Shown here: piece after piece, positions 5,720-36,767 of the stretch | Layout: each line of letters starts with the position of its first letter | How positions within the stretch are numbered: the first letter of the stretch is position 1 | NCBI GenBank assembly: GCA_029939995.1 | Contig: JAOZRW010000007.1 | Location: 15,329-79,328, forward strand | DNA from: Acidimicrobiia bacterium | GTDB taxonomy: Bacteria > Actinomycetota > Acidimicrobiia > Spongiisociales > UBA5794 | DNA length: 64,000 nt | Direction: 5' to 3' | The notes under the pieces: model-generated | What the model saw: only the letters and a program-made list of their open reading frames with translations | The model's database searches: none | Told to the model about the DNA's origin: nothing | Translations under genes and position numbers: made by a program

Positions 5720-7260
5720 GCCGATGCCTCCGCTCCGACGCCGGTCATGTACGAGCCGAGCTCCTCCGGTGTGACGGTCTTCGGATCGAGATCCGCCACG
5801 ATCCGTCCGGTGTAGATGACGAGGAGACGGTCGGAGAGACCGATCAGCTCCTCCAGATCCGCGCTGATGAGCAGCACCGCGAGCCCTTCCTTTCTCGCCG
5901 CACGAAGTTCGTCCCAGATCGCCGCCTGAGCGCCGACGTCGATGCCGCGGGTCGGATGAGCCGCTACGAGTACGTGCGGCTCGGCGATCATCTCCTTGCC
6001 GACGATGAGTTTCTGTTGGTTTCCCCCGGAGAGCGCGATCGCGTGGACGTCGGGTCCCGGAGTCTTCACGTCGAATCGTTCGATGACGGCGCTCGTCCGC
6101 TCCCTGGCACCCTTCCTGTTCACCCAGGGGCCGTTCGCGAACGGCTTGACCGTCTGGTGCCCGAGCATGGTGTTCTCCCAGAGCGGTGACTGGAGCAACA
6201 GCCCCTCCCGGTGCCGATCGGCCGGGATGATGCCGATGCCGGCCTCGCGGCGGCGTTTCGTGGACCAGTTTGCGATGTCCTCGTCCTTGAACCGGATGCT
6301 GCCGGCCGACACCTCGCGGATCCCCAGCAGGGCGTCGATCAGCTCGGCCTGACCGTTTCCTTCGACGCCGGCGATGCCGACGATCTCACCCTGCCGGATG
6401 TCGAAGGTGACGTCGTCGAGAACCGTGCGCCCGTCCGGTGACAGCGCCTCGACGCCGCGGACGGAGAGTTCGACGACATCGGTCACGGTCGACTCCGTCG
6501 TCTCCGGCGTCGGGAGCTCGGAACCGACCATCAGCTCTGCGAGCTGTTTCGCATCGATGCCTTCGGGATCGACCGTGGCGACCGTCCGGCCGCCCCGCAT
6601 CACGGTGATCGAGTCTGCGATCGCGAGCACCTCGTCGAGGTGGTGCGAGATGAAGATGATCGTCTGGCCTTCTTCGACCATCCCCCTGAGGTTCACGAAC
6701 AACTCGTCGACCTCCTGGGGTACGAGTACCGCCGTCGGCTCGTCGAGGATGAGGATGCGGGCCCCGCGGAACAGCACCTTCAGGATCTCGGTCCTCTGTC
6801 GCGCGCCGACGGTGAGCGACTCGACGAGAGCGTCGGGATCGAGTTCCATGCCGTAAGCGGCGCCGATATCGGCGATCTTCTCTTTCCCGGCGGCGAAATC
6901 GAGTTGGAGACCCTTCGTCGGTTCGGATCCGAGAACGACGTTCTCGAAGACGGTGAGGTTGTCGGCGAGCATGAAGTGCTGGTGGACCATCCCGATCCCC
7001 TCGGCGATCGCGTCCTTCGGGGTCTTGAAATCGACTTCCTTGCCGCGGACACGGATCGTTCCCGAATCGGGAGACTGCATTCCGTACAGGATCTTCATCA
7101 GGGTCGACTTGCCGGCGCCGTTCTCCCCCACGATCGCGTGGATCGTCCCCGCGCCGACGGCGAGTTCAACGTCTTCGTTGGCGATGACACCGGGGAAGGT
7201 CTTCGTGATTCCCGTCAATTCGACGGCCAGGGATTCGTCTGCCACCCGTGTTCTCCTCAT
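5716..7260 (-). CDS. ABC transporter ATP-binding protein with two fused nucleotide-binding domains
   Basis: Walker A GENGAGKST. Signature LSVGARQR / LSGGNQQK. Walker B ILILDEPT. Duplicated NBD layout typical of sugar/nucleoside-type importers. Confidence 0.93.
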   Translation of the reverse strand: MRRTRVADESLAVELTGITKTFPGVIANEDVELAVGAGTIHAIVGENGAGKSTLMKILYGMQSPDSGTIRVRGKEVDFKTPKDAIAEGIGMVHQHFMLADNLTVFENVVLGSEPTKGLQLDFAAGKEKIADIGAAYGMELDPDALVESLTVGARQRTEILKVLFRGARILILDEPTAVLVPQEVDELFVNLRGMVEEGQTIIFISHHLDEVLAIADSITVMRGGRTVATVDPEGIDAKQLAELMVGSELPTPETTESTVTDVVELSVRGVEALSPDGRTVLDDVTFDIRQGEIVGIAGVEGNGQAELIDALLGIREVSAGSIRFKDEDIANWSTKRRREAGIGIIPADRHREGLLLQSPLWENTMLGHQTVKPFANGPWVNRKGARERTSAVIERFDVKTPGPDVHAIALSGGNQQKLIVGKEMIAEPHVLVAAHPTRGIDVGAQAAIWDELRAARKEGLAVLLISADLEELIGLSDRLLVIYTGRIVADLDPKTVTPEELGSYMTGVGAEASA

Positions 7261-7337
7261 CTCCGATTCGTCGACCCATATGCAACGGGCCCGAGGCTAG
7301 CGCCTCGGGCCCGTGCTGTGCTACTTGGCCGAACGAA

Positions 7338-8489
7338 TCAGCCGACGGTGTCGGGGACGGTCACATCACCCGTGATGATCTTGGCACGAAGCTCGTCGAT
7401 CTGGTCGACGATGTCATCGACGAATCCACCGGAGGTGGAGTAGCCGACGCCGTCCGCGTCGAGGTTGAACACCAGGACACCGGACTGGTTGCCTTCGTTC
7501 ACGAAGTTGGCCACCGTCGTGTAGACGGCCACGTCAACTCGCTTGAGCATCGACGTCAGGATGTACTCCTTGACGTCGTCGCCTGCGGTCTCGTACTGGT
7601 CCGAGTCCACACCGATCGCCCACACCTTGCTGCCGCTCGTGGTGGAGAATTCCTTCGCAGCCTCGAAGAGACCGCCGCCGGAACCGCCGGCCGCGTGGTA
7701 CACGACATCGGCGCCCTGCTCGTACATGGCGAGCGCGGCTTCCTTGCCCTTGGCCGGGTCGTTGAATCCGGAGAAGTCCGGCGGCTCGGTCAGGTACTGG
7801 GTGAGAACTTCGATGTCCGGGTTGATGTACTCGGCACCGAAGCGATAGCCGGCTTCGAACTTGTTGATGAGCCCGATGTTGACGCCGCCGATGAACCCGA
7901 TCTTGCCGGACTGCGACTTCAACGCGGCCGCAGCACCGACGAGGGCCGAGCCCTCGTGCTCTGCGAACACCAGCGATGCAACGTTCGGTGCATCGACGAC
8001 GGAGTCGACGATGGCGAAGTTCGTCTCGGGGAAGTCGGTGGCCGTGGCAGCGACTGCCTCGGCGAACGCGAACCCGATGGCGAAGTTCAGATCGAACCCG
8101 CTCTCGGCGAGCAGACGGAGGTTCTCCTCACGGTTCTCTCCACCTGCGGTGGGCTCGAGCTCCTGGATCTCGATGCCGAAGTCCTGCACGGCCTTGTCGA
8201 GGCCGGCGGCTGCGGAGTCGTTGAACGACTTGTCGCCGCGCCCGCCGATGTCGTAGGCCATGCCGACCTTGATTCCCTCGCCGGCCATCGAGCCTGCGGT
8301 GGTGGTCGTCTCTTCCGCAGGAGCTGCGGTCGTCGTGGTCTCTTCGTCGCCGGCTGCGGTCGTCGTGGTCTCTTCAGCGCCGGCCGCTGTCGTCGTGGTT
8401 TCATCGCTACTGCTGCTGCATGCTGCAACGATCAGTGCGAACGCGAGGAGCAGGATGAACAAGCCCCCACGTTTCTTCAATCCGGTCAT
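7338..8489 (-). CDS. BMP-family (basic membrane protein / PnrA-like) substrate-binding lipoprotein
   Basis: Start trimmed to ATG 8489 (MTGLKKRGGLFILLLAFALIVAAC, lipobox IVAAC). Thr/Ala/Glu-rich linker, then a BMP-like body (DKSFNDSA..., GFIGGV...). Confidence 0.88.
   Translation of the reverse strand: MTGLKKRGGLFILLLAFALIVAACSSSSDETTTTAAGAEETTTTAAGDEETTTTAAPAEETTTTAGSMAGEGIKVGMAYDIGGRGDKSFNDSAAAGLDKAVQDFGIEIQELEPTAGGENREENLRLLAESGFDLNFAIGFAFAEAVAATATDFPETNFAIVDSVVDAPNVASLVFAEHEGSALVGAAAALKSQSGKIGFIGGVNIGLINKFEAGYRFGAEYINPDIEVLTQYLTEPPDFSGFNDPAKGKEAALAMYEQGADVVYHAAGGSGGGLFEAAKEFSTTSGSKVWAIGVDSDQYETAGDDVKEYILTSMLKRVDVAVYTTVANFVNEGNQSGVLVFNLDADGVGYSTSGGFVDDIVDQIDELRAKIITGDVTVPDTVG
8292..8405 (-). 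repeat. In-frame tandem repeat encoding about 4 copies of (D/E)ETTTTAA(G/P)A in the lipoprotein linker
   Basis: Protein reads SDETTTTAAGAEETTTTAAGDEETTTTAAPAEETTTTAG. The DNA shows near-identical units of about 33 nt (ctgcggtcgtcgtggtctcttc...). Confidence 0.8.
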
Positions 8490-8626
8490 GGATCGGACCC
8501 TTTCTGTCGGTTGAAACTGTTGCGCGCCTACCCGTGGGCGCAACCGAGTTGAGTCTAGGGCGTTTCAGAGCTTGATGTCGCCGGGCGACGAGATCCGGAT
8601 CGCCGGGTAGGCCTCCCGACCGGTGC

Positions 8627-11131
8627 TCAGTGCTCGTTGTCGGCGAGTTCCACCGGAGGCTGATCCGGCGTCTCGATCGACACGAACGCGAGGCGCTCGG
8701 GATCCTCTTCGTCGATATCGACGAGGATGGTCGACCCCGCCGGGAACTCGCGATGGAGCACGCGCTCGGACAACGGGTCCTCCAACAGACGCTGGATCGC
8801 CCTGCGGAGCGGCCTCGCGCCGAGCTGCGGGTCGTACCCCTTCTCCGCGAGTCGCGTCTTCGCCGCGTCGGAGAGCGCCAGGTCGATCGCCTGCGATTCG
8901 AGCTGCGACCGCACACGGGCCACGAGGAGGTCGACGATCGTCTTGACCTCTTCCTGGGTCAGCTCGTGGAAGACGATGACCTCGTCGATACGGTTCAGGA
9001 ACTCCGGGCGGAAGTGCTTCTTGAGCGACTCGACGACCTTCTCACGCATCTTGTCGTAGTCCAGTTCGGCGTCGTCGACGGAGAATCCGATCGCCTTCTT
9101 GCGGAGATCCGCGGTGCCGAGGTTGGACGTCATGATGATCACGGTGTTCTTGAAGTCGACGGCGCGCCCCTGGGCGTCCGTCAGACGCCCGTCCTCGAGG
9201 ATCTGCAACAAGATGTTGAAGACGTCCTGGTGGGCCTTCTCGATCTCGTCGAACAGCACGACGGAGAACGGCTTCCTGCGAACGGCTTCCGTCAGCTGAC
9301 CGCCCTCGTCGTATCCGACGTAGCCGGGTGGGGAACCGACGAGCCGGCTCACTGCGTGCTTCTCCATGTACTCGGACATGTCGATCTGGATCAGTGCATC
9401 CTCGTCGCCGAAGAGGAACTCGGTGAGCGCTTTCGCCGACTCGGTCTTGCCGACCCCGGACGGTCCGAGGAAGATGAAGGACCCCGCCGGCCGCTTCGGA
9501 TCCTTCAACCCGGCACGGGTGCGGCGGATCGCTTTGGAGACCGCCTCGATGGCGTCGTGCTGGCCGATGATGCGCTTGTGGAGCTCGTCCTCCATGCGCA
9601 GCAGCCGCTCCGTCTCCTCCTCGGTGAGGCGATGCACGGGGATGCCGGTCCACTGGGCGAGAACCTCGGCGATCTGCTCCTCGTCGATGATGGACGAGTA
9701 GTCCTCGCCGACCGCCGCACCCTGGGACACGAAGCCGGAGCGCTCCCCCATCAGGTTCAGTTCCTGGTCGCGAAGCTTGGCCGCCCGTTCGTACTGCTGT
9801 GCGTAGACGGCTTCGCGTTTGTCTCCGCGGATCTTGGCCACGCGGTCGTCGATGTCGCGAACCTCGCTCGGGAGATCCTTGCGCTTGAGCCGCATCCGAC
9901 TTCCCGCTTCGTCGATCAGGTCGATGGCCTTGTCCGGCAGGTACCGGTCGGCGATGTACCGGTCGGCGAGGTTCGCAGCGTTGACGAGCGCCTGGTCCGT
10001 GAACCGGACACGGTGATGGTCCTCGTACGAGTCGCGCAGGCCTTCGAGGATCTTGATGGTGTCGGCGACCGTCGGTTCTTCGACCTGGATGGGCTGGAAC
10101 CGGCGTTCGAGGGCCGAGTCCTTCTCGAGGTACTTGCGGTACTCCTCGAGCGTCGTGGCACCGATCGTCTGGAGCTCACCGCGGGCGAGCATCGGCTTCA
10201 GGATGCTGGCCGCGTCGATCGCGCCTTCGGCTGCTCCGGCTCCGACGAGGGTGTGGATCTCGTCGATGAACAGGATGATGTCTCCGCGGGTGCGGATCTC
10301 CTTCAGAACCTTCTTGAGCCGCTCCTCGAAGTCGCCGCGGTACCGGGAGCCGGCGACGAGCGCTCCGAGATCGAGCGTGTAGAGATGTTTGTCGGTGAGG
10401 GTGTCCGGCACGTTCCCCTCCACGATCCGCTGGGCGAGGCCCTCCACGATGGCGGTCTTGCCGACGCCCGGCTCTCCGATCAGCACCGGGTTGTTCTTGG
10501 TGCGTCGGGAGAGGACCTGCATGACCCGTTCGATCTCCGTGGACCGGCCGATCACCGGATCGAGCTTGCGTTCGCGGGCGAGCTGCGTGAGGTTCCTGCC
10601 GAACTGGTCGAGCACGGTCGAGCCGCTGCTCGACGGTCCCGACTCGCTCTTCCCGCTCCCGCCCGGGTGCCCGGATGCGCTCGGTTCCTCGCTCTGGACA
10701 CCGGAGAGGAGCTGGATCACCGTCTGGCGGACCTTGTGCAGTTCGGCGCCGAGCTGCTGGAGAACCTGGGCGGCGACACCCTCCCCCTCGCGGATGAGGC
10801 CGAGCAGGATGTGCTCGGTCCCGATGTAGTTGTGGCCGAGCTGGAGAGCCTCGCGCAGGGACAGTTCGAGGACCTTCTTGGCGCGGGGGGTGAACGGGAT
10901 GTGCCCGCTGGGGGCCTGGGATCCCTGGCCGATGATCTCGACGACCTGGCTGCGAACCGATTCGAGGCTGATGTCCATGCTCTCGAGCGCGCGGGCGGCG
11001 ACACCCTCGCCTTCGTGGATGAGACCGAGAAGGATGTGCTCGGTCCCGATGTAGTTGTGATTGAGGAGCCGCGCCTCTTCCTGGGCGAGAACCACGACCC
11101 TCCGGGCCCTATCGGTGAACCGTTCGAACAA
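8627..11131 (-). CDS. clpC: ATP-dependent Clp protease ATP-binding subunit ClpC
   Basis: [37 protein letters not shown], duplicated Clp-N repeats, two AAA+ modules ([16 protein letters not shown]), and a UVR-like linker. Confidence 0.97.
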
Positions 11132-11249
11132 GGTGACACCTCTTGATGGAACAATGGCGCCGGGATCCCCGAACGCCTCCCCAAGTATAGGAGCGGACGC
11201 CCGATAGACCCCGGTTCTTGAACCGGAGTATCCGGATCATGTTTCGGAA

Positions 11250-11275
11250 AACGCAGGGGCTACCATTCCCATTCC
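11250..11275 (-). promoter_or_regulatory. SigH/SigR-type ECF promoter motif GGAAT-N18-GTT upstream of clpC
   Basis: The minus strand reads GGAATGGGAATGGTAGCCCCTGCGTT. That is GGAAT at 11275-11271, exactly 18 nt of spacer, and GTT at 11252-11250. It lies about 120 nt upstream of the clpC start. Confidence 0.5.
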
Positions 11276-11294
11276 CGAGAGGCCCAGGAGACCC

Positions 11295-12287
11295 GTGGAC
11301 CAGCCGATTCTCAACGATCTCGTCCCGATTCCAAGAGTATGGGACAGGATGAGCGGGGTCGAGCGACGCCTTCTCGAAGTCACGATGTCCGAAGACGTGT
11401 TCCTGACCGATATCGCCCAGCACCTGCTTCGCGCCGGCGGGAAGCGGTACCGTCCGCTCCTCGCGCAGGTCGCTGCGGAGCTCGGCTCGGGGGACGGTGA
11501 CGGCCCGATCGAGGCCGGCGTCTCCGTCGAACTGGTCCACGTCGGATCGCTCTATCACGACGACGTCATCGATGAGGCCGACTCTCGCCGGGGGCAGGTC
11601 TCGGTGAACGAGAACTGGACGAATACGATCGCCATCCTTGCCGGCGACTTCCTTCTCGCCCGCGCCTCGGAGATCGCCGCTCCGCTCGGCGAGGAAGCCG
11701 TGACACTCGTCGCCCAGACGTACGCGCGCCTGTGCGAGGGGCAGGTCGCCGAACTCCGGTTCGCCGGGGCGCTCGACCACGGGCCGGACGGCTATTACCA
11801 GGTCATCGGTGGGAAAACGGCGAGTCTCATCCGCACGTCGGCACGGCTCGGTGCGATCACCGCGAACGCCTCCGACGAGGATGTCGAGGCCATCAGCGAC
11901 TGGGCATGGGAAATGGGCCTCGTCTTTCAGATGACCGACGACGTGCTCGATCTCGTCGCCGACGAAGCGTTCCTCGGCAAACCCTCCGGGTCCGACATCG
12001 GCGAAGGTGTCTACACGCTCCCGGTGCTCTACGCGGCGAGCGGACCCGACGGGCCGAAGATCCGGGATGCTCTCTCCGGCGGCGCTCCGACGGATCGCGC
12101 GACCATCGACCGCGTGATCGAGCTCACCGTCGCCGGCGGCTTCGTCGACCGGGTCATCGACGAATCGATGGCGCACATGCGTCTCGCCGAGGCCGCAACC
12201 GATCGGATCAGCAGCCGGTCCCTGACCCCGGTTCTGCAGAACCTCGACGCGTACATCTTGAACCGCGTCAAGGCCGCCCGCGAATAG
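11295..12287 (+). CDS. Polyprenyl diphosphate synthase (trans-isoprenyl diphosphate synthase family)
   Basis: GGKRYRPLL, first DDxxD (LYHDDVIDEADSRRG), second DDxxD (FQMTDDVLD). Start uncertain: GTG 11295 or ATG 11349. Confidence 0.88.
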   Translation: MDQPILNDLVPIPRVWDRMSGVERRLLEVTMSEDVFLTDIAQHLLRAGGKRYRPLLAQVAAELGSGDGDGPIEAGVSVELVHVGSLYHDDVIDEADSRRGQVSVNENWTNTIAILAGDFLLARASEIAAPLGEEAVTLVAQTYARLCEGQVAELRFAGALDHGPDGYYQVIGGKTASLIRTSARLGAITANASDEDVEAISDWAWEMGLVFQMTDDVLDLVADEAFLGKPSGSDIGEGVYTLPVLYAASGPDGPKIRDALSGGAPTDRATIDRVIELTVAGGFVDRVIDESMAHMRLAEAATDRISSRSLTPVLQNLDAYILNRVKAARE

Positions 12288-12322
12288 CCCGGCCCCCCTG
12301 CGTCGTCGCTGCGCTTCTCCGC

Positions 12323-12439
12323 GTCCCCCCGTCCTCCGGTCGGGGGGACAGGTATGAAAGGGGCCACACCCCTCTTTTTCACGTCTTTCATGTCCCCCCG
12401 GCACGGCCGGGGGGACGCGCACTCGCACGGCGAGTGCGC
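12323..12439. terminator. Cluster of stem-loops in the convergent gap between the polyprenyl synthase and lysS (probable bidirectional terminators)
   Basis: Hairpin 1 at 12323-12349 (GTCCCCCC / GGGGGGAC, 11-nt loop). A short stem AGGGG/CCCCT followed by CTTTTT at about 12359-12379. Hairpin 2 at 12392-12416 with the same 8-bp stem as hairpin 1. Hairpin 3 at 12417-12439 (GCGCACTCG / CGAGTGCGC, 9 bp), 8 nt from the lysS stop. Confidence 0.6.
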
Positions 12440-12446
12440 AGGGGGC

Positions 12447-13937
12447 CTACTGCTCGGGGCGCATCGTGGGGAAGAGGATCACTTCTCTGATGTGCTTGCG
12501 GTCGGTGACGAGCATCACGAGACGATCGACGCCGATCCCGAGCCCACCGGTCGGGGGGAGCCCGTACTCGAGGGCACGGAGATAGTCCTCGTCGACGGGA
12601 TGCGCTTCGTCGTCACCCGCCGCCCGGGCTGCAGCCTGTGCCTCGAATCGCTTCCGCTGGTCGAACGGGTCGTTGAGCTCGGAGAACGCGTTGGCGTACT
12701 CCGACCCGGCGATGACCAGCTCGAATCGCTCGGTGAGCTCGGGATCGTCTCGATGCGCCCGGGCGAGCGGCGACACTTCCTTGGGGTAGTCCGTGACGAA
12801 GGTGGGATCCCACAAGCCGTCTTCGACCAGCTCTTCGTACATCTCGAAGAGAACCCGGCCGGATCCCCACGATGCATCGACGGCCACACCGCGGCGGGAG
12901 GCGAGCGCACGGAGCTGCTCGATCGGCGTGTCCATCGAAACGTCCTCTCCGACGGCCTCGGCCACGAGATCGATGAGACGCGCCCTCCGGAACGGCGGCG
13001 TGAGATCGAGCAGGCGCCCCTGATAGGTGAGGGCCGCCGAACCGGTGGCCGCCACCGCGACGGCGGAGAACACCGCTTCGATCAGATCCATGATGTCGGT
13101 GTAGTCGGCGAACGCCTGATACGCCTCGAGCATCGTGAACTCGGGGTTGTGTGTCGAGTCGACGCCTTCGTTGCGGAAGATGCGACCGATCTCGAATACG
13201 CGTTCGATCCCCCCGACGACGAGCCGCTTGAGGAACAGCTCGGTTGCGATCCGCATCGACAGATCGATGTCCAGCGCGTTGTGATGGGTCGTGAACGGAC
13301 GAGCCGTCGCCCCCGTCGCCTGGGAGAGCAACACGGGCGTCTCGACCTCGATGAACCCGCGGTCCTCGAACTGTCGCCGGAGCTCGGAGATGACCCTTGC
13401 CCGCGTCAGCGCGACCGCCCGTGAGTCCTCGTTGACCATGAGGTCCACGTACCGGCGGCGTGAGCGGGCCTCCACGTCCTTGAGCCCGTGCCACTTGTCC
13501 GGGAGCGGGCGAAGCGCCTTGGCGAGAAGCGTCACCGACGAGACCCGGACGCTCAGCTCCCCCTTCCTGGTCGCGATGACCTCGCCGGTCGCACCGATCC
13601 AGTCCCCCGAGTCGAGGTGGAGGAAGTCGGCGAATCCTTCGTCCCCGAGAACCGCTTTGCTGACGAACAGCTGGATCCGGCCGGACACGTCCTGGAGCAC
13701 GCCGAATGCGAGCCTGCCCATGTCACGCACGTTCATGAGCCGCCCGGCAACGGTCGCCTCGACGCCCGTTTCGGCTCCGGGTTCGAGATCCGCATACCGT
13801 TCGTGAAGCTCTGCTGCGAGGTCCGTGCGGTCGAACCGGTACGGGTAGCCGCCCCGCTCCGCTCCGGCCCGGTACTTCTCGATGCGCGCCGCTACGAGCG
13901 GGTCGTCGATCGGCGTCTCGGCGTGTTCGTCGGTCAT
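12447..13937 (-). CDS. lysS: Lysine--tRNA ligase (class II)
   Basis: Start trimmed to ATG 13937 (MTDEHAETPIDDPLVAARIEKYR...). The listed 713-aa ORF is an Arg-rich read-through into coaX. ATGA overlap with the coaX stop. Class II motifs present (FRNEG, GGLGIGVDRLVM). Confidence 0.95.
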   Translation of the reverse strand: MTDEHAETPIDDPLVAARIEKYRAGAERGGYPYRFDRTDLAAELHERYADLEPGAETGVEATVAGRLMNVRDMGRLAFGVLQDVSGRIQLFVSKAVLGDEGFADFLHLDSGDWIGATGEVIATRKGELSVRVSSVTLLAKALRPLPDKWHGLKDVEARSRRRYVDLMVNEDSRAVALTRARVISELRRQFEDRGFIEVETPVLLSQATGATARPFTTHHNALDIDLSMRIATELFLKRLVVGGIERVFEIGRIFRNEGVDSTHNPEFTMLEAYQAFADYTDIMDLIEAVFSAVAVAATGSAALTYQGRLLDLTPPFRRARLIDLVAEAVGEDVSMDTPIEQLRALASRRGVAVDASWGSGRVLFEMYEELVEDGLWDPTFVTDYPKEVSPLARAHRDDPELTERFELVIAGSEYANAFSELNDPFDQRKRFEAQAAARAAGDDEAHPVDEDYLRALEYGLPPTGGLGIGVDRLVMLVTDRKHIREVILFPTMRPEQ

Positions 13938-30420: not shown

Positions 30421-30497
30421 GCCGGGGTAGCTCAGTCCGGTAGAGCAACGCACTCGTAATGCGTAGGTCTCGGGTTCGAATCCCGACCTCGGCTCCA
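30421..30497 (+). tRNA. tRNA-Thr (anticodon CGT), CCA encoded
   Basis: Cloverleaf folded by hand. Acceptor GCCGGGG/CCTCGGC (one G-U pair), D arm GCTC/GAGC, anticodon arm ACGCA-CTCGTAA-TGCGT, T arm TCGGG-TTCGAAT-CCCGA, discriminator T, then CCA. Confidence 0.9.
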
Positions 30498-30566: not shown

Positions 30567-31727
30567 TCAGCCGACGATGGCTTCCGCGATGGTGAGACCG
30601 ATCTCGCGATGGCCTTCCACGCTCGGATGCGGCCACCCCGCCCACATCTGGGTCGGAACGTGCATGGCGTCCAGGTCGACCCACGTCACCTCGCCGTCGA
30701 GACCGGCCTGAATCGCGCCGTGGAGCTCCCCGAGGGCGTAGCGCATCTCGTCTTCGCACTCGGGCCCGATCGGAGACCAGCCGGGGGCGAGCAGCGAGCC
30801 GTCGATCGCGAAGTAGCTCGCCCAGTACACGGAGGCGTTCGTGCGGGTCTCGATCGCATCGACGATCGCCGCCGTCCCGGCCGTGATGTCGCTTCGTCGG
30901 CTATCGAGGTTCCAACGCCGGGTCACCGCGACTTCGCATGCTTCCTTGTCCCCCGAGTCTTTGAGCGAGAACGCCGTGTCCCGGGTCAGGTCCTTCACGA
31001 CGTCGACCCAGTTGGTCGAGTTGATGCCGGCCGTCATGACCACGATGTTCCAGGTCGTCGGGGCCGCCGCCTGAGCGATAGCCTCGATCTGGCTCCCGTG
31101 TGTGGCCGAGCAGGAGTCCGAACCGCCGTTGAGGACCGCGCCGACTCCCGCTCCCGGGAACGCGACGTTCGCGTATCGCGGGGCCCACGCAACGGGAAGT
31201 TCCGCCGCGACGGCATCTCGCACGGTGCTCCCGAACGAGTACGCGGCGTCGGTACAGGTCGCATCGCCGGTGAACCACATCCGGCTGTACCCGGAAGCGA
31301 TGGAGTCGCCGGCGACGAAGATCGTCGGCGGGGAGGGCGTCACCCCGGTCCATGCCGGATACCACTCGGATTCCCAGCCGTTCACGTCGACGGCCCGGAC
31401 CTGGAGGCCGTACCGCGTGTCCGGCAGGACGGCGTCGTAGGACACGACCGGGTCCTCAACCGGCATCGCCTCGATCGCCGTGGGGGCCGCCCCGTTCCAT
31501 CGGTACTCGTAGCGTTCGATGCCGTCGTTGTCGTCGGCTTCGATCAACAGATCGGCTTCGAGCAGCACATTGTGGGAGGCCGGTTGGAGCAGTTCGACGG
31601 ACCTGATCACGGGACGCACGTCCCCGTCGGGAAGTTGCTCGCCGGGAGGAGCAACGGCGAACGCGGGAACCGCGCCGACCAGAAGGCCGACGAGCATGAG
31701 GCTCACGATTCCGGTACGTCGCGACAT
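30567..31727 (-). CDS. Secreted SGNH/GDSL-family hydrolase with an N-terminal Ig/FN3-like domain
   Basis: Signal peptide MSRRTGIVSLMLVGLLVGAVPAFA. Block I FVAGDSIASG. Remaining layout is SGNH-like. Confidence 0.7.
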   Translation of the reverse strand: MSRRTGIVSLMLVGLLVGAVPAFAVAPPGEQLPDGDVRPVIRSVELLQPASHNVLLEADLLIEADDNDGIERYEYRWNGAAPTAIEAMPVEDPVVSYDAVLPDTRYGLQVRAVDVNGWESEWYPAWTGVTPSPPTIFVAGDSIASGYSRMWFTGDATCTDAAYSFGSTVRDAVAAELPVAWAPRYANVAFPGAGVGAVLNGGSDSCSATHGSQIEAIAQAAAPTTWNIVVMTAGINSTNWVDVVKDLTRDTAFSLKDSGDKEACEVAVTRRWNLDSRRSDITAGTAAIVDAIETRTNASVYWASYFAIDGSLLAPGWSPIGPECEDEMRYALGELHGAIQAGLDGEVTWVDLDAMHVPTQMWAGWPHPSVEGHREIGLTIAEAIVG

Positions 31728-31829
31728 GGGGCCAAACCTAACCGTCGGGGGCAGTACTCATATGACGCCGCAGGTCCCGGATTGGTTCCCGGGCTGCGAA
31801 CTCTGGGCCGAAAACGCGCCTATGTACGC

Positions 31830-31850
31830 CTGCGAACCCTGGGTTCGCAG
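31830..31850. promoter_or_regulatory. Perfect 10+1+10 palindrome CTGCGAACCC-T-GGGTTCGCAG in the divergent intergenic region (candidate operator)
   Basis: Read directly from the sequence. A near-copy of the left arm plus centre (CTGCGAACTCTGGG) occurs at 31794-31807. Confidence 0.4.
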
Positions 31851-31966
31851 TGTCGTGGTCCACCTCCCGTCGGGGGTAGGATGCCGAACGGCGATGAGGC
31901 CCACCGCAACGGCTCCGTGCATCGACGGCTTCTCCCCAACGAACCGATCGATGGAAACCACCGAGC

Positions 31967-33562
31967 ATGCCGGAACACACCCCCACCCCCGTCTCGAGCG
32001 CCGGGGAACCCGTCGACGAATCGGGAGGAACCCCGGAACCCACGGGCGGCATCCTCGGTGATCGGCACACAGCGTCATCCGACGGGCCCGCCGACGCCGA
32101 AGCGTTCGCCGACCTTCACCTGGATCAGATCGTCACCGCGATCCTCGGTCGATCCGGAGACGACCTGGAACCGCTGTTCCGAACACCGCTCTCGACGGCC
32201 GACGACATCGAGCTGCGACACGAGGTGTTCCGCGATCTCCAGAGAGCCGAGGTGCTCGACGCCGTCCGGGGATTCGTCTCGGAGATGCGCTCCGTCCTGG
32301 GTCGCACCCAGGCGAGCACGGACCTCGTCGGCCGATACGCCGCTGAAGGAGCGTTCATCGAAACCGTGGAGGCGTACACGACGGCCGTCGCGTCGTTCGC
32401 CGAGATCCTCCCCCGCCTCGACATCACGTCGCGCGGCCTGTCGGCCCTTCGCGAGCACATGGCCGGCTACGTCGCCTCCGATCGGTTCCTGAACCTCGTC
32501 TCGGAGACCCGGGCCATGGCCGACGAACTCGCCGGTGTCCGATACACGATGGCCATCAACGGCCGCCGGGTCCGGGTCGGCCGCTTCCGCGGCGAACCGG
32601 ACTACGGCGCCGAGGTCGAGGAGACGTTCAGCCGGTTCAGCCGGGGAGACAGCAAGCGCTACACGAACAAGCTGAGTGCCGGGACCGACATCGGCCACGT
32701 CGAGGAACGGATCCTCGGACTCGTCGCTCGTCTCTATCCGGATACGTTCGCCGCCCTCGACGCGTACGTCGAACGGAACGGCGCCTACCTCGACGAGACG
32801 CTCGTCGCTTTCATCCGCGACGTCCGCTTCTACCTCGCGGTGCTCGCCTTCATCGAACCGATGGAGCGCGCGGGCCTCCCGTTCTGCTACCCGACCATCA
32901 CCGGGACCAGGGGCGGGGTCGACGTGAGCGAGGGCTTCGATCTGACGCTCGCAACCCGGCTCGTGTCGTCGCGAACGGAAGTCGTGACCAACGACTTCTC
33001 GCTCGACCCCGATGAGCGGATCGTCGTCATCACCGGCCCGAACCAGGGAGGGAAGACCACGTTCGCCAGGATGTTCGGGCAGATCCACCATCTCGCCGCC
33101 ATCGGGTGCCCGGTGCCGGGCAGGAACGTGTCCCTGCCCCTCGCCGACCGGATCTTCACGCACTTCGAGCGGGAGGAGCACGTGGAGAACCTGCGGGGCA
33201 AGCTCGCCGACGACCTGATCCGGGTGCGCTCGATGCTCACCAGGGCCACACCCGACACGGTGCTGATCATGAACGAGACGTTGAATTCCACGACGCTCAC
33301 CGATGCGCGGTTCCTCGGCGAGCAGCTCCTGGATCGCATCTCGCAGATCGACGCGCGGTGCGTATACGTGACCTTCGTCGACGAACTGGCATCCCTCGAC
33401 GACACCATCGTCAGCATGGTGGGCGGGATCGATACCGGGTCGGATGCGGTCCGGACTTTCAAGATCGTCCGCCGGCCGGCGGACGGGCGCGCCTACGCGA
33501 CGGCGCTCGCCGAGCGGTACGGGCTCACCTACGAGCAGCTGAAGGGGCGGATCGGATGCTGA
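31967..33562 (+). CDS. MutS-family ATPase paralogue (core/clamp-like plus ATPase domain; no mismatch-recognition domain), subunit A
   Basis: Walker A ITGPNQGGKTTFARM. MutS-like stretch NVSLPLADRIFTHF and LRGKLADDL. Walker B reads VLIMNE (Asn where MutS has Asp). 531 aa is too short for canonical MutS. Confidence 0.8.
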   Translation: MPEHTPTPVSSAGEPVDESGGTPEPTGGILGDRHTASSDGPADAEAFADLHLDQIVTAILGRSGDDLEPLFRTPLSTADDIELRHEVFRDLQRAEVLDAVRGFVSEMRSVLGRTQASTDLVGRYAAEGAFIETVEAYTTAVASFAEILPRLDITSRGLSALREHMAGYVASDRFLNLVSETRAMADELAGVRYTMAINGRRVRVGRFRGEPDYGAEVEETFSRFSRGDSKRYTNKLSAGTDIGHVEERILGLVARLYPDTFAALDAYVERNGAYLDETLVAFIRDVRFYLAVLAFIEPMERAGLPFCYPTITGTRGGVDVSEGFDLTLATRLVSSRTEVVTNDFSLDPDERIVVITGPNQGGKTTFARMFGQIHHLAAIGCPVPGRNVSLPLADRIFTHFEREEHVENLRGKLADDLIRVRSMLTRATPDTVLIMNETLNSTTLTDARFLGEQLLDRISQIDARCVYVTFVDELASLDDTIVSMVGGIDTGSDAVRTFKIVRRPADGRAYATALAERYGLTYEQLKGRIGC

Positions 33563-35049
33563 GCGCCCACCTCCTGCATCCGGACCGGGACGTCGACTTG
33601 TCCGCCCCGCTTCCGGGCAACGCTCCCGCCCTGGTGGACGACCTCGAGCTGACGACCCTGTTCGCCGCGATGGGCGACGGGGACGCGTACATCGAGCAGG
33701 TCGCGAGCCACACCGTGCTCTCGAGCTTGACCGACCTCGATCGGATCGAGTACCGCCGCGCCGTCGTCGACGACGCGCTCGCCCACGCCCCCGTCGTCCG
33801 TGAGATGTACGGCGTCGTCTCGGCTGCGATCGAACACGAGAGCAAGATCTTCCACAGCCGCCTCGCCAGGGCGCCCGAAGCCGTTCTGGGCGAGGCGCGA
33901 CGGTCGCTCCGCTGCTTCGTCGACCCGCTGAAGCGACTCCGGCAGATCGCCGACGAGCAGTCGTCCGCGTTCGCATCCGATGGATTCCGGAACTTCCTCT
34001 CCATGCTCGTAGCCGAGATCGACGAGGACTACATCGGAACGATCGAAGATCATCTGCGAGGGCTCGGACTCCGCCACGGCCCCCTGATCGGCGTCCGGTT
34101 GGGGCCGGGCAACCGGGGGATCGAGCACACCCTGCTCGCCCCGAAGACGCCGAACTGGGTCCGCTGGGCGGCCGTCGGCTCACGCCGAACGTACGGTTTC
34201 GAGATCGCCCAGCGCGACATGGCCGGCGCCGACGAGCTCGAGCGGCTCCGCTCCCGCGGCCTCGACCGGGCGGCGAACGCGGTGGCCGCAGCCGCCGAGC
34301 ACGTGCGGTCGTTCTTCGTGACCCTGCGCGCAGAACTGGCCTTCTGCGTCGGGTGCGTCAACCTCCACGATCGGCTCACGGCGAAGGGCGAACCGATCTG
34401 CTTCCCCGTGCCGACCGCGCCCGGCGAGCCGCGCCTCGCCGCTTCCGGCCTCTACGACGTCGGCCTGTCGCTGAACCTCGAGGAGCGGACGGTCGGGAAC
34501 GACGTCGATGCCGATGGGAAACGCCTGATACTGATCACCGGCGCCAACCAGGGAGGGAAGTCCACGTTCCTGAGGGCCCTCGGAAACGCGCAACTCATGA
34601 TGCAGAGCGGCATGTTCGCTCCCGCCGAATCGTTCACGGCCGATGTGCGCGTCGGCCTCTTCACGCACTTCAAGCGAGAAGAGGACGAGGCGATGGAGAG
34701 CGGCAAACTGGACGAGGAACTCGCCAGGATGGACGACATCGTCCGTTCCATGGGCGCGGAGTCGATGATCCTCCTCAACGAGTCGTTCTCATCGACGAAC
34801 GAGCGGGAGGGATCGGAGATCGCCAGACAGATCCTCCGGGCCTTCGCCGACACCGGCGTGAAAGTGGTCTTCGTCACCCATCTGTTCGATCTCGCCGACG
34901 GCCTCTACCGGTCGGACGACGGCTCGACGGTGTTGCTCCGGGCCGAGCGCGGACCGGACGGCGAGCGAACGTACCGGCTCGCCGAGGCACCGCCGCTGTC
35001 GACGAGTTTCGGAGAAGACGTCTACCGGCGGATCTTCCGGGACGATTGA
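33556..35049 (+). CDS. MutS-family ATPase paralogue, subunit B
   Basis: Start trimmed to ATG 33556 (MLSAHLLHPDRDVDL...), which overlaps the stop of subunit A by 7 nt (ATGCTGA). Walker A ITGANQGGKSTFLRAL. Walker B MILLNE. Confidence 0.8.
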   Translation: MLSAHLLHPDRDVDLSAPLPGNAPALVDDLELTTLFAAMGDGDAYIEQVASHTVLSSLTDLDRIEYRRAVVDDALAHAPVVREMYGVVSAAIEHESKIFHSRLARAPEAVLGEARRSLRCFVDPLKRLRQIADEQSSAFASDGFRNFLSMLVAEIDEDYIGTIEDHLRGLGLRHGPLIGVRLGPGNRGIEHTLLAPKTPNWVRWAAVGSRRTYGFEIAQRDMAGADELERLRSRGLDRAANAVAAAAEHVRSFFVTLRAELAFCVGCVNLHDRLTAKGEPICFPVPTAPGEPRLAASGLYDVGLSLNLEERTVGNDVDADGKRLILITGANQGGKSTFLRALGNAQLMMQSGMFAPAESFTADVRVGLFTHFKREEDEAMESGKLDEELARMDDIVRSMGAESMILLNESFSSTNEREGSEIARQILRAFADTGVKVVFVTHLFDLADGLYRSDDGSTVLLRAERGPDGERTYRLAEAPPLSTSFGEDVYRRIFRDD

Positions 35050-35056
35050 CGCTGCG

Positions 35057-35716
35057 TCAGCGTTCCGATCCGGCGTCGGCCCACCACGGGCCGAGGTGGG
35101 CGTCGATCGCATCGCGCCATGCTTCCGTCATGGCCCCGATCGGATCGACCCGGTCGGCGAAGTCGTGCCACATGAGGGGCTCGCAGAACCAGAGTCGCAC
35201 CGACGTGCGATGCAGGCCGCGGTTGACGGGCCCGAGTGTGCGTTGGGTTCCGTGGATCGCGACGGGGAGCAGCGGGGCACCCGTCATCCAGGCGAGCCAT
35301 GCAGCCCCCCGTTTCGGGTCCGTCTCGCCCCAATAGTCGACGCGTCGACCCTCCGGGAAGACACCGACGGCGCCTCCCGATCGCGCGTAGTCCACCGCTT
35401 CCTCGAGCGCCCTGACAGGGACGCCGTCGCGGTCGGTCGGGATGGCGCCGAAGAATCCGGTGACGATGTCGAACCCGAGGTGATTCCCGAAGAGCTCGTC
35501 GACGGCGATGAACCGGATCAGGCGGCCCAGCGCGTTCACGACGAGGGGCGGGTCCAGGTGCGACAGATGGTTCGATGCGACGATCAGCGGTCCGCCGTGC
35601 GGGATCTTGTCGGTTCCTGTGACGTCGAAGTCCAGCAGGCCGTTCGCAAGCGCCCGCAGGGGAACGTTGATCACACGCGCCACGGCGGCCGGCGGGAGGT
35701 ACCGGAACCTAGCCAT
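35057..35716 (-). CDS. 1-acyl-sn-glycerol-3-phosphate acyltransferase-like (PlsC family)
   Basis: Start trimmed to ATG 35716 (MARFRYLPPAAV...). Acyltransferase motifs NHLSHLDP and FPEGRR. Confidence 0.8.
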   Translation of the reverse strand: MARFRYLPPAAVARVINVPLRALANGLLDFDVTGTDKIPHGGPLIVASNHLSHLDPPLVVNALGRLIRFIAVDELFGNHLGFDIVTGFFGAIPTDRDGVPVRALEEAVDYARSGGAVGVFPEGRRVDYWGETDPKRGAAWLAWMTGAPLLPVAIHGTQRTLGPVNRGLHRTSVRLWFCEPLMWHDFADRVDPIGAMTEAWRDAIDAHLGPWWADAGSER

Positions 35717-36767
35717 GGCCGGCGAGGTCGGAGAACAGGTTGGCGAAGGCGAGCTTCGGCCGCTGGTTGGCTGCGAGGTCGCCGATCGCGGAGAGCGTCC
35801 GATCGGCTGCGGCGACGGCCCGTCGGGGAGTGACCGATGAGAGGGCCGCCACGGGGACGTCGGTGTTGCGGATCGGAGCGCCGAGCTGTGCTGCGGCCAC
35901 ATCCCGGTAGAACGAGGCCAGGATCTCGAGACCCGTGACGTAGAGGGCGTCCGTCGCCCGTTTCAGCTCCCGGGCCTGACGGTCGCGCAGCGCCTTCGAC
36001 GCGTCCTCGCCGAGGACGTCCCGCTCTTCTTTCTGGCGCTGCTTCAGGGCCTCCAGCAGCGGATCCGCCGCAGCGATCGTCTCGTCTGCGAGTCGGAACG
36101 CGTCGCCCGGGTGCTCGCCGAGCCGCATCGGGATGCTCAACCAGTGGCGCCGGTAGTCCGCGACCTGTGGCTCCGTGGCGAGCGCGAGGGCGAGCCCCGG
36201 CCGGCCTCCTGCGATGCGCGCTGCCTCGGCCGCCTGGTCGGTCTCGATGCCGAGCGCCGCCAACCCGTCGGACACCTCTTGCTCGGGAACCCGTCCGATC
36301 GCGACGGTTCGGCAGCGGCTTGCCACCGTGTCGGGCAGATCGTCCTCCGTCTCGGTCACGATGATGAACACGGCGGCCCTCGTCGGCTCCTCGAGCGTCT
36401 TCAGGAGGGCGTTCGCCGCCTCGTCGTTCATCATGCCCCCCTCTTCGAAGAGGAAGACCTTGCGATCGGATTCGAGCGGCGACCGGGTCGACTGGGAGAC
36501 GACCCTTCGAGCTTGATCGACCGTGATCGACGCCCGGCCTTCGGGCTCTATGAGGATGAGGTCCGGGTGGATCCCCGAGGTCACCCGCCGGAAGCACTCG
36601 CCGTCGTCCCCGCAGAGAAGCGCCGCGGCGAATCGGCGGGCGATCGTCGACTTCCCCACGTTCGATGGGCCGGCGAAGAGGTACGACTGAGCGGGCGTCG
36701 CGATCTCCCGTGTCAGGAACTCGATCACACCGCTGTGCCCGACGACACCATCGAAGGGCTTCACCAT
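35709..36767 (-). CDS. holB: DNA polymerase III subunit delta'
   Basis: AYLFAGPSNVGKST-type P-loop (SYLFAGPSNVGKST), clamp-loader-like layout, and position downstream of tmk. Confidence 0.85.
   Translation of the reverse strand: MVKPFDGVVGHSGVIEFLTREIATPAQSYLFAGPSNVGKSTIARRFAAALLCGDDGECFRRVTSGIHPDLILIEPEGRASITVDQARRVVSQSTRSPLESDRKVFLFEEGGMMNDEAANALLKTLEEPTRAAVFIIVTETEDDLPDTVASRCRTVAIGRVPEQEVSDGLAALGIETDQAAEAARIAGGRPGLALALATEPQVADYRRHWLSIPMRLGEHPGDAFRLADETIAAADPLLEALKQRQKEERDVLGEDASKALRDRQARELKRATDALYVTGLEILASFYRDVAAAQLGAPIRNTDVPVAALSSVTPRRAVAAADRTLSAIGDLAANQRPKLAFANLFSDLAGHG

What the first reader, a model, noticed from the sequence alone, without database searches (positions are those of the whole stretch)
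31967..35049. Translationally coupled pair of short MutS-family ATPases with Walker B Asp-to-Asn in both
Two adjacent paralogues of 531 and 497 aa overlap by 7 nt (ATGCTGA). Each has a MutS-type P-loop (GPNQGGKTT / GANQGGKST) and the MutS ATPase-domain layout. They are too short to contain the mismatch-binding and connector domains. Both read hhhhNE (VLIMNE / MILLNE) where canonical MutS has hhhhDE. High-GC actinobacteria generally lack MutS/MutL and use NucS (established knowledge), so a heterodimer-like MutS pair here is unlikely to be classical mismatch repair. From memory, orphan paired MutS paralogues have been noted in phylogenetic surveys without an assigned function. The locus sits in an accessory-looking block next to a tRNA gene.
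Basis: partly seen in the sequence, partly recalled or inferred. Interest (0 to 1): 0.62.

Follow-up and report, generated by a model that had tools for sequence, protein, structure and literature searches.

The report
MutS4A/MutS4B pair with decayed fluoride switch
These two overlapping genes are a copy of the already named but functionally unexplained MutS4A/MutS4B pair of stripped-down MutS-like ATPases, which most bacteria switch on with a fluoride-sensing RNA; here that RNA switch has decayed while the genes are still kept.

Summary
Genes of 531 aa (31967-33562) and 497 aa (33556-35049) overlap by ATGCTGA. Pfam finds only MutS domain V in each.

**Walker B Asn.** Both read hhhhNE. The Asn aligns on E. 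coli MutS D693 and is kept in about 97% of 240 homologues.

**Family.** A tree places them in the MutS4A and MutS4B clades (100/99), apart from MutS1 and MutS2. Lin, Nei and Ma named this pair in 2007, noting its stop/start overlap. So it is a known family of unknown function.

- AlphaFold models match the MutS lever, clamp and ATPase domains (III-V). Only domains I-II and any nuclease are absent.
- The ATP site is rebuilt family-wide: Walker B D to N, signature S-T to G-K, and H-loop His to Phe in A only.
- In 53 of 80 loci from many phyla a fluoride riboswitch lies directly upstream.
- Syntenic orthologues (67-70% identity) carry an intact aptamer. The window and its one sister genome carry the same leader with P3 destroyed and invariant bases changed.
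- The genes remain under purifying selection (dN/dS 0.15-0.21).

**Distribution.** The pair occurs in 2 of 21 genomes of the genus, with no mobility marks.

Most likely it is an asymmetric heterodimeric MutS-like nucleic-acid clamp from the fluoride-stress regulon. Its biochemical role is inferred, not shown.

The parts
31877..31882 (+). -10-like hexamer TAGGAT directly upstream of the leader RNA
   Evidence: GGGTAGGAT is conserved in the orthologous leaders of the window, G002, L097, L098 and L099. Its role as a promoter is inferred, not shown.
31881..31941 (+). Decayed (relic) fluoride-riboswitch aptamer, 26 nt upstream of the MutS4A start
   Evidence: My covariance model R1 scores it 26.1 bits, against 59.2 bits for the syntenic orthologous leaders. 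Rfam RF01734 scores those orthologues 47.8 bits (cut-off 34) but gives no match here even at E<=10. The alignment shows P3 GCUC-CGA-GAGC changed to GCUC-CGU-GCAU, CUGAUGG changed to UCGACGG, and CUAC changed to CUCC.
31967..33562 (+). MutS4A, 531 aa: disordered N-terminus, lever and clamp domains, ABC-type ATPase domain V
   Evidence: In the S4A clade at 100/99. AlphaFold pLDDT 83, pTM 0.81. Foldseek E about 1e-17 to MutS, MSH2 and MutS2 cores.
33035..33061 (+). MutS4A Walker A, GPNQGGKTT
33194..33217 (+). MutS4A signature-motif equivalent RGKLADDL (G411-K412 in place of MutS S668-T669)
   Evidence: K412 is invariant in 120 homologues
33260..33277 (+). MutS4A Walker B VLIMNE (N436 at the position of E. 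coli D693)
33368..33385 (+). MutS4A H-loop position VTFVDE: invariant Phe470 where MutS has His728
33556..33562 (+). ATGCTGA overlap of the MutS4A stop and the MutS4B start
   Evidence: The same 7-nt overlap occurs in L097-L099. A 4-nt overlap occurs in 40 of 50 other pairs.
33556..35049 (+). MutS4B, 497 aa: lever and clamp domains, ABC-type ATPase domain V
   Evidence: In the S4B clade at 100/99. AlphaFold pLDDT 81.5, pTM 0.81.
34540..34566 (+). MutS4B Walker A, GANQGGKST
34699..34722 (+). MutS4B signature-motif equivalent SGKLDEEL (G383-K384)
34765..34782 (+). MutS4B Walker B MILLNE (N408-E409)
34873..34890 (+). MutS4B H-loop VTHLFD: His442 retained (invariant)

Best explanation
**Identity (shown).** The two genes are the MutS4A/MutS4B pair. 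It is an ancient, co-inherited pair of MutS paralogues. They keep the MutS lever, clamp and ATPase domains (III-V). They lack the mismatch-reading domain I, the connector domain II and any nuclease.

**ATP site (sequence features shown; consequences inferred).** The site is rebuilt in the whole family.
- The Mg-holding Walker B Asp is Asn in both proteins. The catalytic Glu is kept.
- The signature Ser-Thr is Gly-Lys in both.
- The H-loop His is Phe in A only.

From this I infer an obligate A/B heterodimer with two unequal composite ATP sites. It would work as a slow ATP-driven switch or clamp on a nucleic acid, not as a mismatch sensor.

**Regulation (shown).** In most carriers the operon is turned on by a fluoride riboswitch and sits among fluoride-stress genes. 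The window's copy descends from such an operon at this same chromosomal site. Its aptamer has since decayed, in the common ancestor of this genome and one sister species.

**Present state.** Both genes are still under purifying selection (shown). So the pair is still used here, but can no longer be controlled by fluoride sensing through this RNA (inferred). How it is now regulated, and what its substrate is, are unknown.

**My odds**
- Identity as MutS4A/B plus a relic riboswitch: about 0.9.
- Heterodimeric nucleic-acid clamp serving fluoride stress: about 0.4.
For: **Family**
- The tree puts A in the S4A clade and B in the S4B clade. The two clades are sisters, and each of these three branches has 100/99 support. 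They are separate from MutS1, MutS2 and a third paralogue group.
- The S4 clades include the pair of a Thermoanaerobacter genome, a genus Lin et al. list as a MutS4 carrier.

**Gene structure**
- The adjacent genes with stop/start overlap match the published MutS4 signature.

**Fold**
- Both AlphaFold models (pTM 0.81) align over 500-580 columns to MutS, MSH2, MSH3 and the MutS2 core.

**ATP site**
- N-E, G-K and TF/TH are invariant or nearly so in 120 + 120 homologues. They are absent from MutS1, MutS2 and the third group.

**Fluoride link**
- RF01734 is present in 10 of 11 sampled loci.
- By my reading, 53 of 80 loci have an aptamer within 700 nt upstream on the same strand. About 8 more have one 0.9-2 kb upstream.
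- Neighbouring genes are enolase, CrcB, DUF190-CBS, CLC, Na/H and Mrp antiporters and dynamin-like GTPases. No nuclease is among them.
- The crcB motif upstream of 'mutS' genes was published in 2010.

**Relic**
- Syntenic loci L097-L099 have the same order: sigma, A, B, acyltransferase, holB, tmk, topA. They carry an intact aptamer (47.8 bits in Rfam).
- The window and G002 have the orthologous leader with shared disabling changes.

**Selection**
- dN/dS between the window and G002 is 0.205 for A and 0.148 for B. This is within the range of flanking genes, 0.04-0.21.
Against: **Evidence gaps**
- No experiment or expression data bears on this copy.
- Heterodimer formation is inferred from co-inheritance and complementary motif asymmetry. 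No complex was modelled.
- Nucleic-acid binding is inferred from fold only.
- The only published functional test is an overexpression assay in M. smegmatis showing more recombinants. It points to DNA transactions, not fluoride, and is weak.

**Points that weaken the relic or fluoride reading**
- The mutated aptamer could conceivably still fold or sense something. Only two sequences carry it, so conservation cannot be judged.
- The window's clade departs from the family consensus at 11-14 of about 140-155 highly conserved positions, against a median of 2. Orthologues with an intact switch do the same.
- About 17 of 80 loci show no aptamer, so fluoride control is common but not universal.
Confidence: 0.7

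Rival explanations
1. The pair is a DNA-transaction factor unrelated to fluoride. It would be a MutS-like clamp that promotes or edits homologous recombination, or substitutes for missing MutS/MutL functions in a NucS organism. On this reading the riboswitch association elsewhere is only one of several ways to regulate it.
For: - Kim et al. 2017 reported more frequent and longer rpoB recombination tracts in M. smegmatis carrying a MutS4 operon.
- The fold keeps the MutS lever and clamp domains that encircle DNA.
- In this genome the pair sits beside holB, tmk and topA, and has lost its fluoride switch while staying under selection.
- The clamp segments are rich in basic residues: 11 K+R of 56 residues in A and 7 of 51 in B.
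Against: - There is no domain I and no MutL or nuclease partner in any of about 93 neighbouring genes.
- The mycobacterial assay is a single overexpression experiment.
- The position next to holB, tmk and topA is specific to this lineage. Other phyla place the pair among fluoride-stress genes.
- The pair is absent from 19 of 20 other genomes of the genus, so it is not a core repair function.
Confidence: 0.2
2. The pair does not act on DNA at all. Like MutS2 on collided ribosomes, or the MutS-like KamC reactivase on an enzyme, it would use the MutS ATPase core to rescue a fluoride-poisoned machine. Candidates are stalled ribosomes, or Mg-dependent enzymes trapped by metal-fluoride complexes.
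For: - The MutS2 core (7vuk) and the B. subtilis MutS2-disome complex (7qv3) are among the top structural matches.
- NCBIfam KamC, a MutS-like reactivase ATPase, is the second-best hit of protein B (63.9 bits).
- Neighbours in other genomes include enolase, dynamin-like or translation-type GTPases, and pyruvate kinase rather than DNA enzymes.
Against: - The KamC score is far below its cut-off of 300.
- There is no KOW or Smr domain, and no ribosome-binding element was identified.
- The structural matches to MutS2 are no better than those to MutS1 and MSH proteins.
- There is no direct evidence of any kind.
Confidence: 0.12
3. In this genome the pair is a functionless leftover. After the riboswitch decayed, the operon would be silent and on its way to becoming a pseudogene.
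For: - The aptamer is disabled.
- The anti-Shine-Dalgarno pairing GGCUUCU/GGAA(A/G)CC is still largely possible. Without ligand control it could lock translation off (my reading).
- Most of the genus has no pair.
- The lineage departs from the family consensus more than typical members.
Against: - Both frames are intact in both genomes that share the decayed leader.
- dN/dS since their split is 0.21 and 0.15, like flanking housekeeping genes.
- All family-invariant catalytic residues are kept.
- Orthologues with an intact switch show the same number of departures from consensus.
Confidence: 0.05
4. The pair is an anti-phage defence or mobile-element module, as many orphan P-loop ATPase pairs next to tRNA genes are.
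For: - Distribution in the genus is patchy.
- A tRNA-Thr lies 1.5 kb away.
- There are weak PADLOC hits (mad8, E 5.8e-5).
Against: - The PADLOC hits cover only the P-loop region and are marginal.
- There is no integrase, nuclease or flanking repeat.
- The tRNA and the GDSL gene are conserved in genomes without the pair.
- Neighbours elsewhere are fluoride-stress genes, not defence genes.
Confidence: 0.03

Closest known systems
MutS4A/MutS4B subfamily (Lin, Nei and Ma 2007, PMC2190696; mycobacterial examples in Kim et al. 2017, PMC5742357)
   Same: - Two adjacent paralogues with stop/start overlap.
- Only the MutS ATPase domain is recognisable by sequence.
- Sporadic distribution across distant phyla and archaea.
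- The tree places the window's proteins inside the A and B clades.
   Different: - The overlap is 7 nt (ATGCTGA) rather than the usual 4 nt.
- This copy belongs to a fast-evolving sub-lineage.
- It has lost the functional fluoride aptamer.
- The N-E, G-K and TF/TH site changes and the lever and clamp domains were not found in the passages of the two papers I read with term searches.
Fluoride-riboswitch (crcB motif, RF01734) regulon 'mutS' genes (Weinberg et al. 2010, PMC2864571; the fluoride ligand from Baker et al. 2012, recalled from memory because the paper was not held)
   Same: - Same protein family.
- 53 of 80 related loci, and the syntenic orthologues L097-L099, carry the aptamer directly upstream.
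   Different: - In the window the aptamer fails the Rfam model entirely. It is recognisable only as an orthologous, mutated remnant.
- No RF01734 match exists anywhere in this genome or in three others of the genus.
MutS2 core (Thermus thermophilus 7vuk/7vuf; Bacillus subtilis MutS2 on collided ribosomes, 7qv3)
   Same: Lever, clamp and ATPase domains without domains I and II, and of similar size. Foldseek E about 1e-17, TM 0.5-0.56 on the target.
   Different: - There is no Smr nuclease or KOW domain.
- It is a heterodimer of two paralogues rather than a homodimer (inferred).
- Walker B is N-E, not D-E.
- The tree separates it from MutS2.
E. coli MutS D693N mutant (PDB 3k0s)
   Same: It has the same Asp-to-Asn change at the Walker B Mg site, and is the best PDB sequence hit of protein A. 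From memory of Lebbink et al. 2010, the mutant binds Mg poorly, switches slowly and is repair-defective.
   Different: - In MutS4 the Asn is the natural, conserved state.
- It comes with a compensating-looking Lys in the signature motif and an asymmetric H-loop.
KamC, the MutS-like reactivase ATPase of lysine 5,6-aminomutase (NCBIfam NF052383)
   Same: A MutS domain V ATPase of about 500 aa without mismatch-binding domains. It shows that this core can serve non-DNA functions.
   Different: Scores of 42 and 63.9 bits fall far below the cut-off of 300, so the window's proteins are not members.

Membership tests
MutS4A/MutS4B | Two adjacent paralogous genes, with the stop of A overlapping the start of B | tested here: met
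   ATGCTGA at 33556-33562. The definition is in Lin et al. 2007.
MutS4A/MutS4B | Only the MutS ATPase (MutSac, domain V) is recognisable by sequence; no MutS-I, MutS-II or Smr | tested here: met
   Pfam finds MutS_V only. NCBIfam MutS1 and MutS2 scores are far below their cut-offs.
MutS4A/MutS4B | Phylogenetic placement of each protein in the A or B clade, with a pair from a named MutS4 genus | tested here: met
   S4A 100/99, S4B 100/99 and S4A+S4B 100/99. The clades include the Thermoanaerobacter pair. The published accessions themselves were not fetched.
MutS4A/MutS4B | Family-wide site signature derived here: Walker B N-E, signature G-K, H-loop TF in A and TH in B | tested here: met
MutS1 (mismatch repair MutS) | N-terminal mismatch-recognition domain I and connector domain II | tested here: not met
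   No PF01624 or PF05188 hit. TIGR01070 scores 67 and 56 bits against a cut-off of 641.7. The models begin at the lever domain.
MutS2 | C-terminal Smr endonuclease (and KOW) domain | tested here: not met
   No Smr hit. TIGR01069 scores 49 and 64 bits against a cut-off of 400. Both proteins end shortly after domain V.
KamC reactivase | Score above the NF052383 cut-off | tested here: not met
   42 and 63.9 bits against a cut-off of 300
Fluoride-riboswitch-controlled operon | An RF01734 aptamer above the gathering score in the 5' leader | tested here: not met
   No match in the window at the gathering threshold, or at E<=10 on 701 or 111 bases. The feature is met in syntenic orthologues L097 and L099 at 47.8 bits.
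Fluoride-riboswitch-controlled operon | Fluoride-dependent expression | not testable with these tools
   This needs a reporter assay or in-line probing.
Known anti-phage defence systems (PADLOC) | A significant full-length match to a defence protein model | tested here: not met
   The best hit is mad8 at E 5.8e-5, limited to the P-loop region.

The most novel reading that the evidence does not exclude
MutS4AB would be a 'fluoride-proof' MutS-type machine. Replacing the Mg-holding Walker B Asp by Asn, and inserting a Lys from the partner's signature motif, would let its ATP sites work with little dependence on carboxylate-bound Mg2+. They would then not be trapped by Mg-fluoride transition-state mimics when fluoride floods the cell. 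In the window's lineage the fluoride switch has rotted while both genes stay under selection beside holB, tmk and topA. There the machine would have been taken over for a constitutive, fluoride-independent housekeeping role on DNA.
Probability: 0.12. Interest if true: 0.75.

Novelty: new member of a known kind. Interest (0 to 1): 0.38.

Why it matters
**The open question**
- MutS4A/B is one of the most widespread gene pairs of the fluoride-riboswitch regulon, and has no known biochemical job.
- More than 6,800 A-type and nearly 8,000 B-type homologues passed E 0.001 among the 8,000 candidates scored in each search.
- They occur from Chloroflexota and Actinomycetota to Bathyarchaeota.
- Working out what a mismatch-blind MutS clamp does under fluoride stress would fill a gap of about fifteen years.

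**What this window adds**
- It is a natural experiment. At one conserved chromosomal site, sister lineages carry the same operon either with an intact aptamer or with a decayed one, and the genes are maintained in both.
- This gives ready-made matched leaders for reporter assays.
- It also suggests that the pair has value beyond acute fluoride induction.

**A concrete biochemical hypothesis**
- The rebuilt, asymmetric ATP site (N-E, G-K, TF/TH) can be tested directly by mutagenesis.

Tried and rejected
- **PADLOC scan.** It gave only marginal P-loop hits, so I rejected a defence reading.
- **Rfam on the window.** The whole window at gathering, and the leader at E<=10, gave no fluoride match. 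The relic surfaced only with my own model built from 19 Rfam-confirmed aptamers.
- **LexA/SOS-box idea.** I considered the palindrome CTGCGAACCCTGGGTTCGCAG (31830-31850). The half-sites CGAAC/GTTCG are 5 nt apart rather than 4. The palindrome and its distance to the -10 are not conserved in G002. I dropped it as a conserved operator.
- **Insertion scars.** No flanking direct or inverted repeats were found. The longest direct repeats are the paralogous motifs of A and B.
- **Remnants in genomes lacking the pair.** tblastn at E<=1 found no MutS4 remnant in the empty slot of five such same-genus genomes. So gain versus loss at this site is unresolved.
- **Leader folding.** RNA folding of intact and decayed leaders did not decide whether the decayed leader is locked on or off.
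- **Tools and papers not available.**
  - Baker et al. 2012 was not held under the id I tried.
  - Text searches for fluoride plus MutS found no functional study.
- **Naming the organism.** I could not name it. The nearest named homologue is from an Acidimicrobiia MAG at 55% identity.


Full report
**1.

- The + strand carries two ORFs: 31967-33562 (531 aa) and 33556-35049 (497 aa).
- The sequence at 33556-33562 is ATGCTGA, so start and stop overlap by 7 nt.
- Third-position GC of the first frame is 0.86, like the surrounding genes.
- The quoted P-loops and hhhhNE motifs are present.
- Pfam sees only MutS_V in each protein.
- NCBIfam models for MutS1, MutS2 and the MutS-like reactivase KamC match only the ATPase region, far below their cut-offs.
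- PADLOC gives nothing beyond P-loop noise.

**2. The Asn is real and is a family trait**

- phmmer against PDB aligns the query's 'vlimNE' with E. coli MutS 'lvlmDE' (D693-E694).
- The best-scoring PDB sequence for protein A is the engineered D693N mutant, 3k0s.
- Among the 120 best homologues of each protein, N-E is present in 119 (A) and about 115 (B).
- I aligned domain V of MutS1, MutS2, a third paralogue group (P-loop GSNMSGKS) and MutS4 pairs from the same six genomes. Only the MutS4 proteins read N-E.
- The same alignment shows further MutS4-specific changes (invariance):

| Motif | Other MutS groups | MutS4A | MutS4B |
|---|---|---|---|
| Walker B | D-E | N-E | N-E |
| Signature | S-T-F | G-K-L (invariant Lys) | G-K-L (nearly invariant Lys) |
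| After Walker B | G-R-G-T | lost | lost |
| H-loop | T-H | T-F | T-H |

**3. What the proteins are**

- AlphaFold models built on 120-sequence alignments are confident: pLDDT 83 and 81.5, pTM 0.81 for both.
- Foldseek aligns each over 500-580 columns with E. coli MutS, human MSH2/MSH3 and the MutS2 core, at E about 1e-17 to 1e-18.
- So the roughly 300 N-terminal residues that Pfam leaves blank are the MutS lever (III) and clamp (IV) domains. Only domains I and II and any C-terminal nuclease are missing.
- I built a maximum-likelihood tree of the III-V core.
  - The window's A falls in an S4A clade and B in an S4B clade.
  - The two clades are sisters, apart from MutS1, MutS2 and the third group.
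  - Each of these three branches has 100/99 support.
  - The S4 clades include the pair of a Thermoanaerobacter genome.
- Lin, Nei and Ma (2007) named exactly this pair: MutS4A/MutS4B, adjacent, stop overlapping start, function unknown. They list Thermoanaerobacter tengcongensis as a carrier.
- Kim et al. (2017) found the pair in 17 mycobacterial strains. They reported more recombinants when it was overexpressed in M. smegmatis.
- Text searches found no later functional work.

**4. Distribution**

- More than 6,800 (A) and nearly 8,000 (B) proteins passed E 0.001 among the 8,000 candidates scored in each search. Most are about 50% identical over the full length.
- Eighty genome loci span these groups, all at 44-50% identity to the window's A:
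  - Chloroflexota, Desulfobacterota, Actinomycetota (including a Streptomyces and a Cellulomonas) and Bacillota;
  - Verrucomicrobiota, Acidobacteriota and Paraburkholderia;
  - Bathyarchaeota and Woesearchaeota.
- Within the window's own genus only 1 of 20 other species genomes has the pair (G002, 80% and 87.5% identity). One genome of the family and one of the order also have it.

**5. The fluoride link**

Earlier notes of this scan pointed to fluoride riboswitches, so I tested this myself.

- Rfam RF01734 is present in 10 of 11 sampled loci, mostly 50-350 nt upstream of A.
- A covariance model built from those 19 aptamers gave 151 matches over 89 sources.
- By my reading of that table:
  - 53 of 80 loci have an aptamer on the same strand within 700 nt upstream of the A match;
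  - about 8 more have one 0.9-2 kb upstream;
  - about 17 have none.
- I scanned the genes directly flanking the pair in 47 + 46 loci against Pfam. The recurrent families were:
  - enolase (6);
  - dynamin-like GTPases (9);
  - DUF190, often with CBS (4);
  - MFS transporters (6);
  - CrcB (2);
  - Na/H and Mrp antiporters (4);
  - HAD hydrolases (2);
  - CLC (1) and pyruvate kinase (1).
- No nuclease recurs among these neighbours.
- The crcB motif upstream of 'mutS' genes was reported by Weinberg et al. 2010. That its ligand is fluoride is from my memory of Baker et al. 2012.

**6. This copy has a decayed switch**

- Rfam finds no fluoride aptamer in the window.
- My model finds a weak match at 31881-31941 (26.1 bits), 26 nt before the A start. 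It finds the same in G002 (24.3 bits).
- Three metagenome contigs carry A proteins 67-70% identical to the window's (L097-L099). They have the same gene order: ECF sigma, A, B, acyltransferase, holB, tmk, topA.
- At the same position these contigs carry an aptamer scoring 59.2 bits with my model and 47.8 bits with Rfam, whose cut-off is 34.
- Aligning the leaders shows that they are orthologous, including a conserved GGGTAGGAT just upstream.
- In the window and G002 the leader has shared changes:
  - the P3 helix GCUC-CGA-GAGC has become GCUC-CGU-GCAU;
  - CUGAUGG has become UCGACGG, where two U's invariant in my 19-aptamer alignment are now C;
  - CUAC has become CUCC.
- A fourth syntenic contig (L100, 63% identity) has an aptamer eroded at its 5' half. 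It also fails the Rfam cut-off.
- No RF01734 match exists anywhere in G000, G002 or two other genomes of the genus, although all have a tandem crcB pair.
- dN/dS between the window and G002 is 0.205 (A) and 0.148 (B). Flanking genes range from 0.04 to 0.21.
- All family-invariant residues are kept.
- So the genes have been maintained since the aptamer decayed.
- Folding did not tell whether the decayed leader is locked on or off.

**7. Genomic setting**

- The neighbours in order are: cydDC, cydAB, an ECF sigma, tRNA-Thr (30421-30497), a GDSL-family gene (30567-31727, minus strand), the pair, an acyltransferase, holB, tmk and topA.
- G002 is collinear across the whole region at about 85% DNA identity.
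- Five same-genus genomes without the pair keep all these flanks. Between the GDSL gene and the acyltransferase they hold 2.3-4 kb of other DNA, partly shared among them.
- No MutS4 remnant is detectable in that DNA.
- There are no flanking repeats and no integrase.
- The pair is therefore a variable cargo of a core-gene slot, not a tRNA-integrated island.
- The genome has NucS and no other MutS_V gene.

**8. How it most likely works**

Shown:
- the identity as MutS4A/B;
- the domain layout;
- the site substitutions;
- the riboswitch association in relatives;
- the decayed leader here;
- purifying selection on both genes.

Inferred:
- A and B form an obligate heterodimer. The grounds are that they are always adjacent, coupled and co-inherited, and that they have complementary asymmetry.
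- Its two composite ATP sites differ. The site built on A's Walker motifs lacks the H-loop His.
- Both sites hold Mg2+ weakly (Asn for Asp, as in the D693N mutant) and receive a Lys in trans.
- The lever and clamp domains would close on a nucleic acid.
- In the ancestor the operon was induced by fluoride. In this lineage that control was lost.
- The substrate and the benefit under fluoride stress remain unknown.

Rivals:
- a fluoride-independent recombination factor;
- a non-DNA rescue ATPase like MutS2 or KamC;
- a silent remnant;
- a defence module.

**9. Verdict**

This is a known family of unknown function, seen repeatedly in this scan. It missed the retained lever and clamp domains and the fluoride connection. 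The element specific to this window is the relic riboswitch with maintained genes. Interest is moderate.

Noticed in passing
window 31830-31850 (partial copy near 31791-31806): A perfect 21-nt palindrome, CTGCGAACCCTGGGTTCGCAG, lies in the divergent promoter region between the GDSL gene and MutS4A, just upstream of the -35 zone. A partial copy, CTGCGAACTCTGGGCC, lies about 40 nt before it. The palindrome is degraded in G002, where its spacing to the -10 also differs. So it is not a conserved operator, and it does not fit the N4 spacing of a LexA box.
   Followed up: partly
L092-L096 (same-genus genomes G016, G018, G009, G005, G012), between the GDSL gene and the acyltransferase: Genomes without the MutS4 pair hold 2.3-4 kb of other DNA in the same slot. 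It includes a shared minus-strand ORF of about 166-230 aa with a Thr-rich N-terminus next to the GDSL gene. In G009 it also includes a threonine-synthase-like 603-aa ORF. I did not identify the content, and the direction of the event (gain or loss of the pair) is unresolved.
   Followed up: partly
L100:294-335: A second syntenic lineage (A 63% identical) has a fluoride aptamer eroded in its 5' half (GAUCA for GAUGA). It lies about 155 nt from the called start and fails the Rfam cut-off. Erosion of this switch may have happened more than once in this group.
   Followed up: partly
G000, G002, G016, G009 (whole genomes): No fluoride riboswitch is detectable anywhere in four genomes of this genus, yet each has a tandem pair of crcB (Fluc) genes. 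The genus seems to have given up riboswitch control of fluoride export altogether.
   Followed up: partly
L098:5770-5822 and 5925-5985: The aptamer appears twice on this scaffold, once cut off by a run of N. This is most likely a scaffolding artefact, not a tandem riboswitch.
   Followed up: no
window 35057-35902 and 35709-36767 (minus strand): The longest ORFs of the acyltransferase and holB overlap by 194 nt. Orthologues are called at 208-219 aa, so the real acyltransferase start is probably near 35716 and the two genes overlap by only a few bases.
   Followed up: no
L001-L080, genes flanking the pair: Dynamin-like GTPases flank the MutS4 pair in 9 of 93 neighbour genes scanned. They are the most frequent single neighbour family besides enolase and MFS transporters.
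   Followed up: partly
L068 (Paraburkholderia phenazinium), 5645-12911: Four fluoride aptamers lie within 7.3 kb around the MutS4 pair, so this is a dense fluoride-response island.
   Followed up: no
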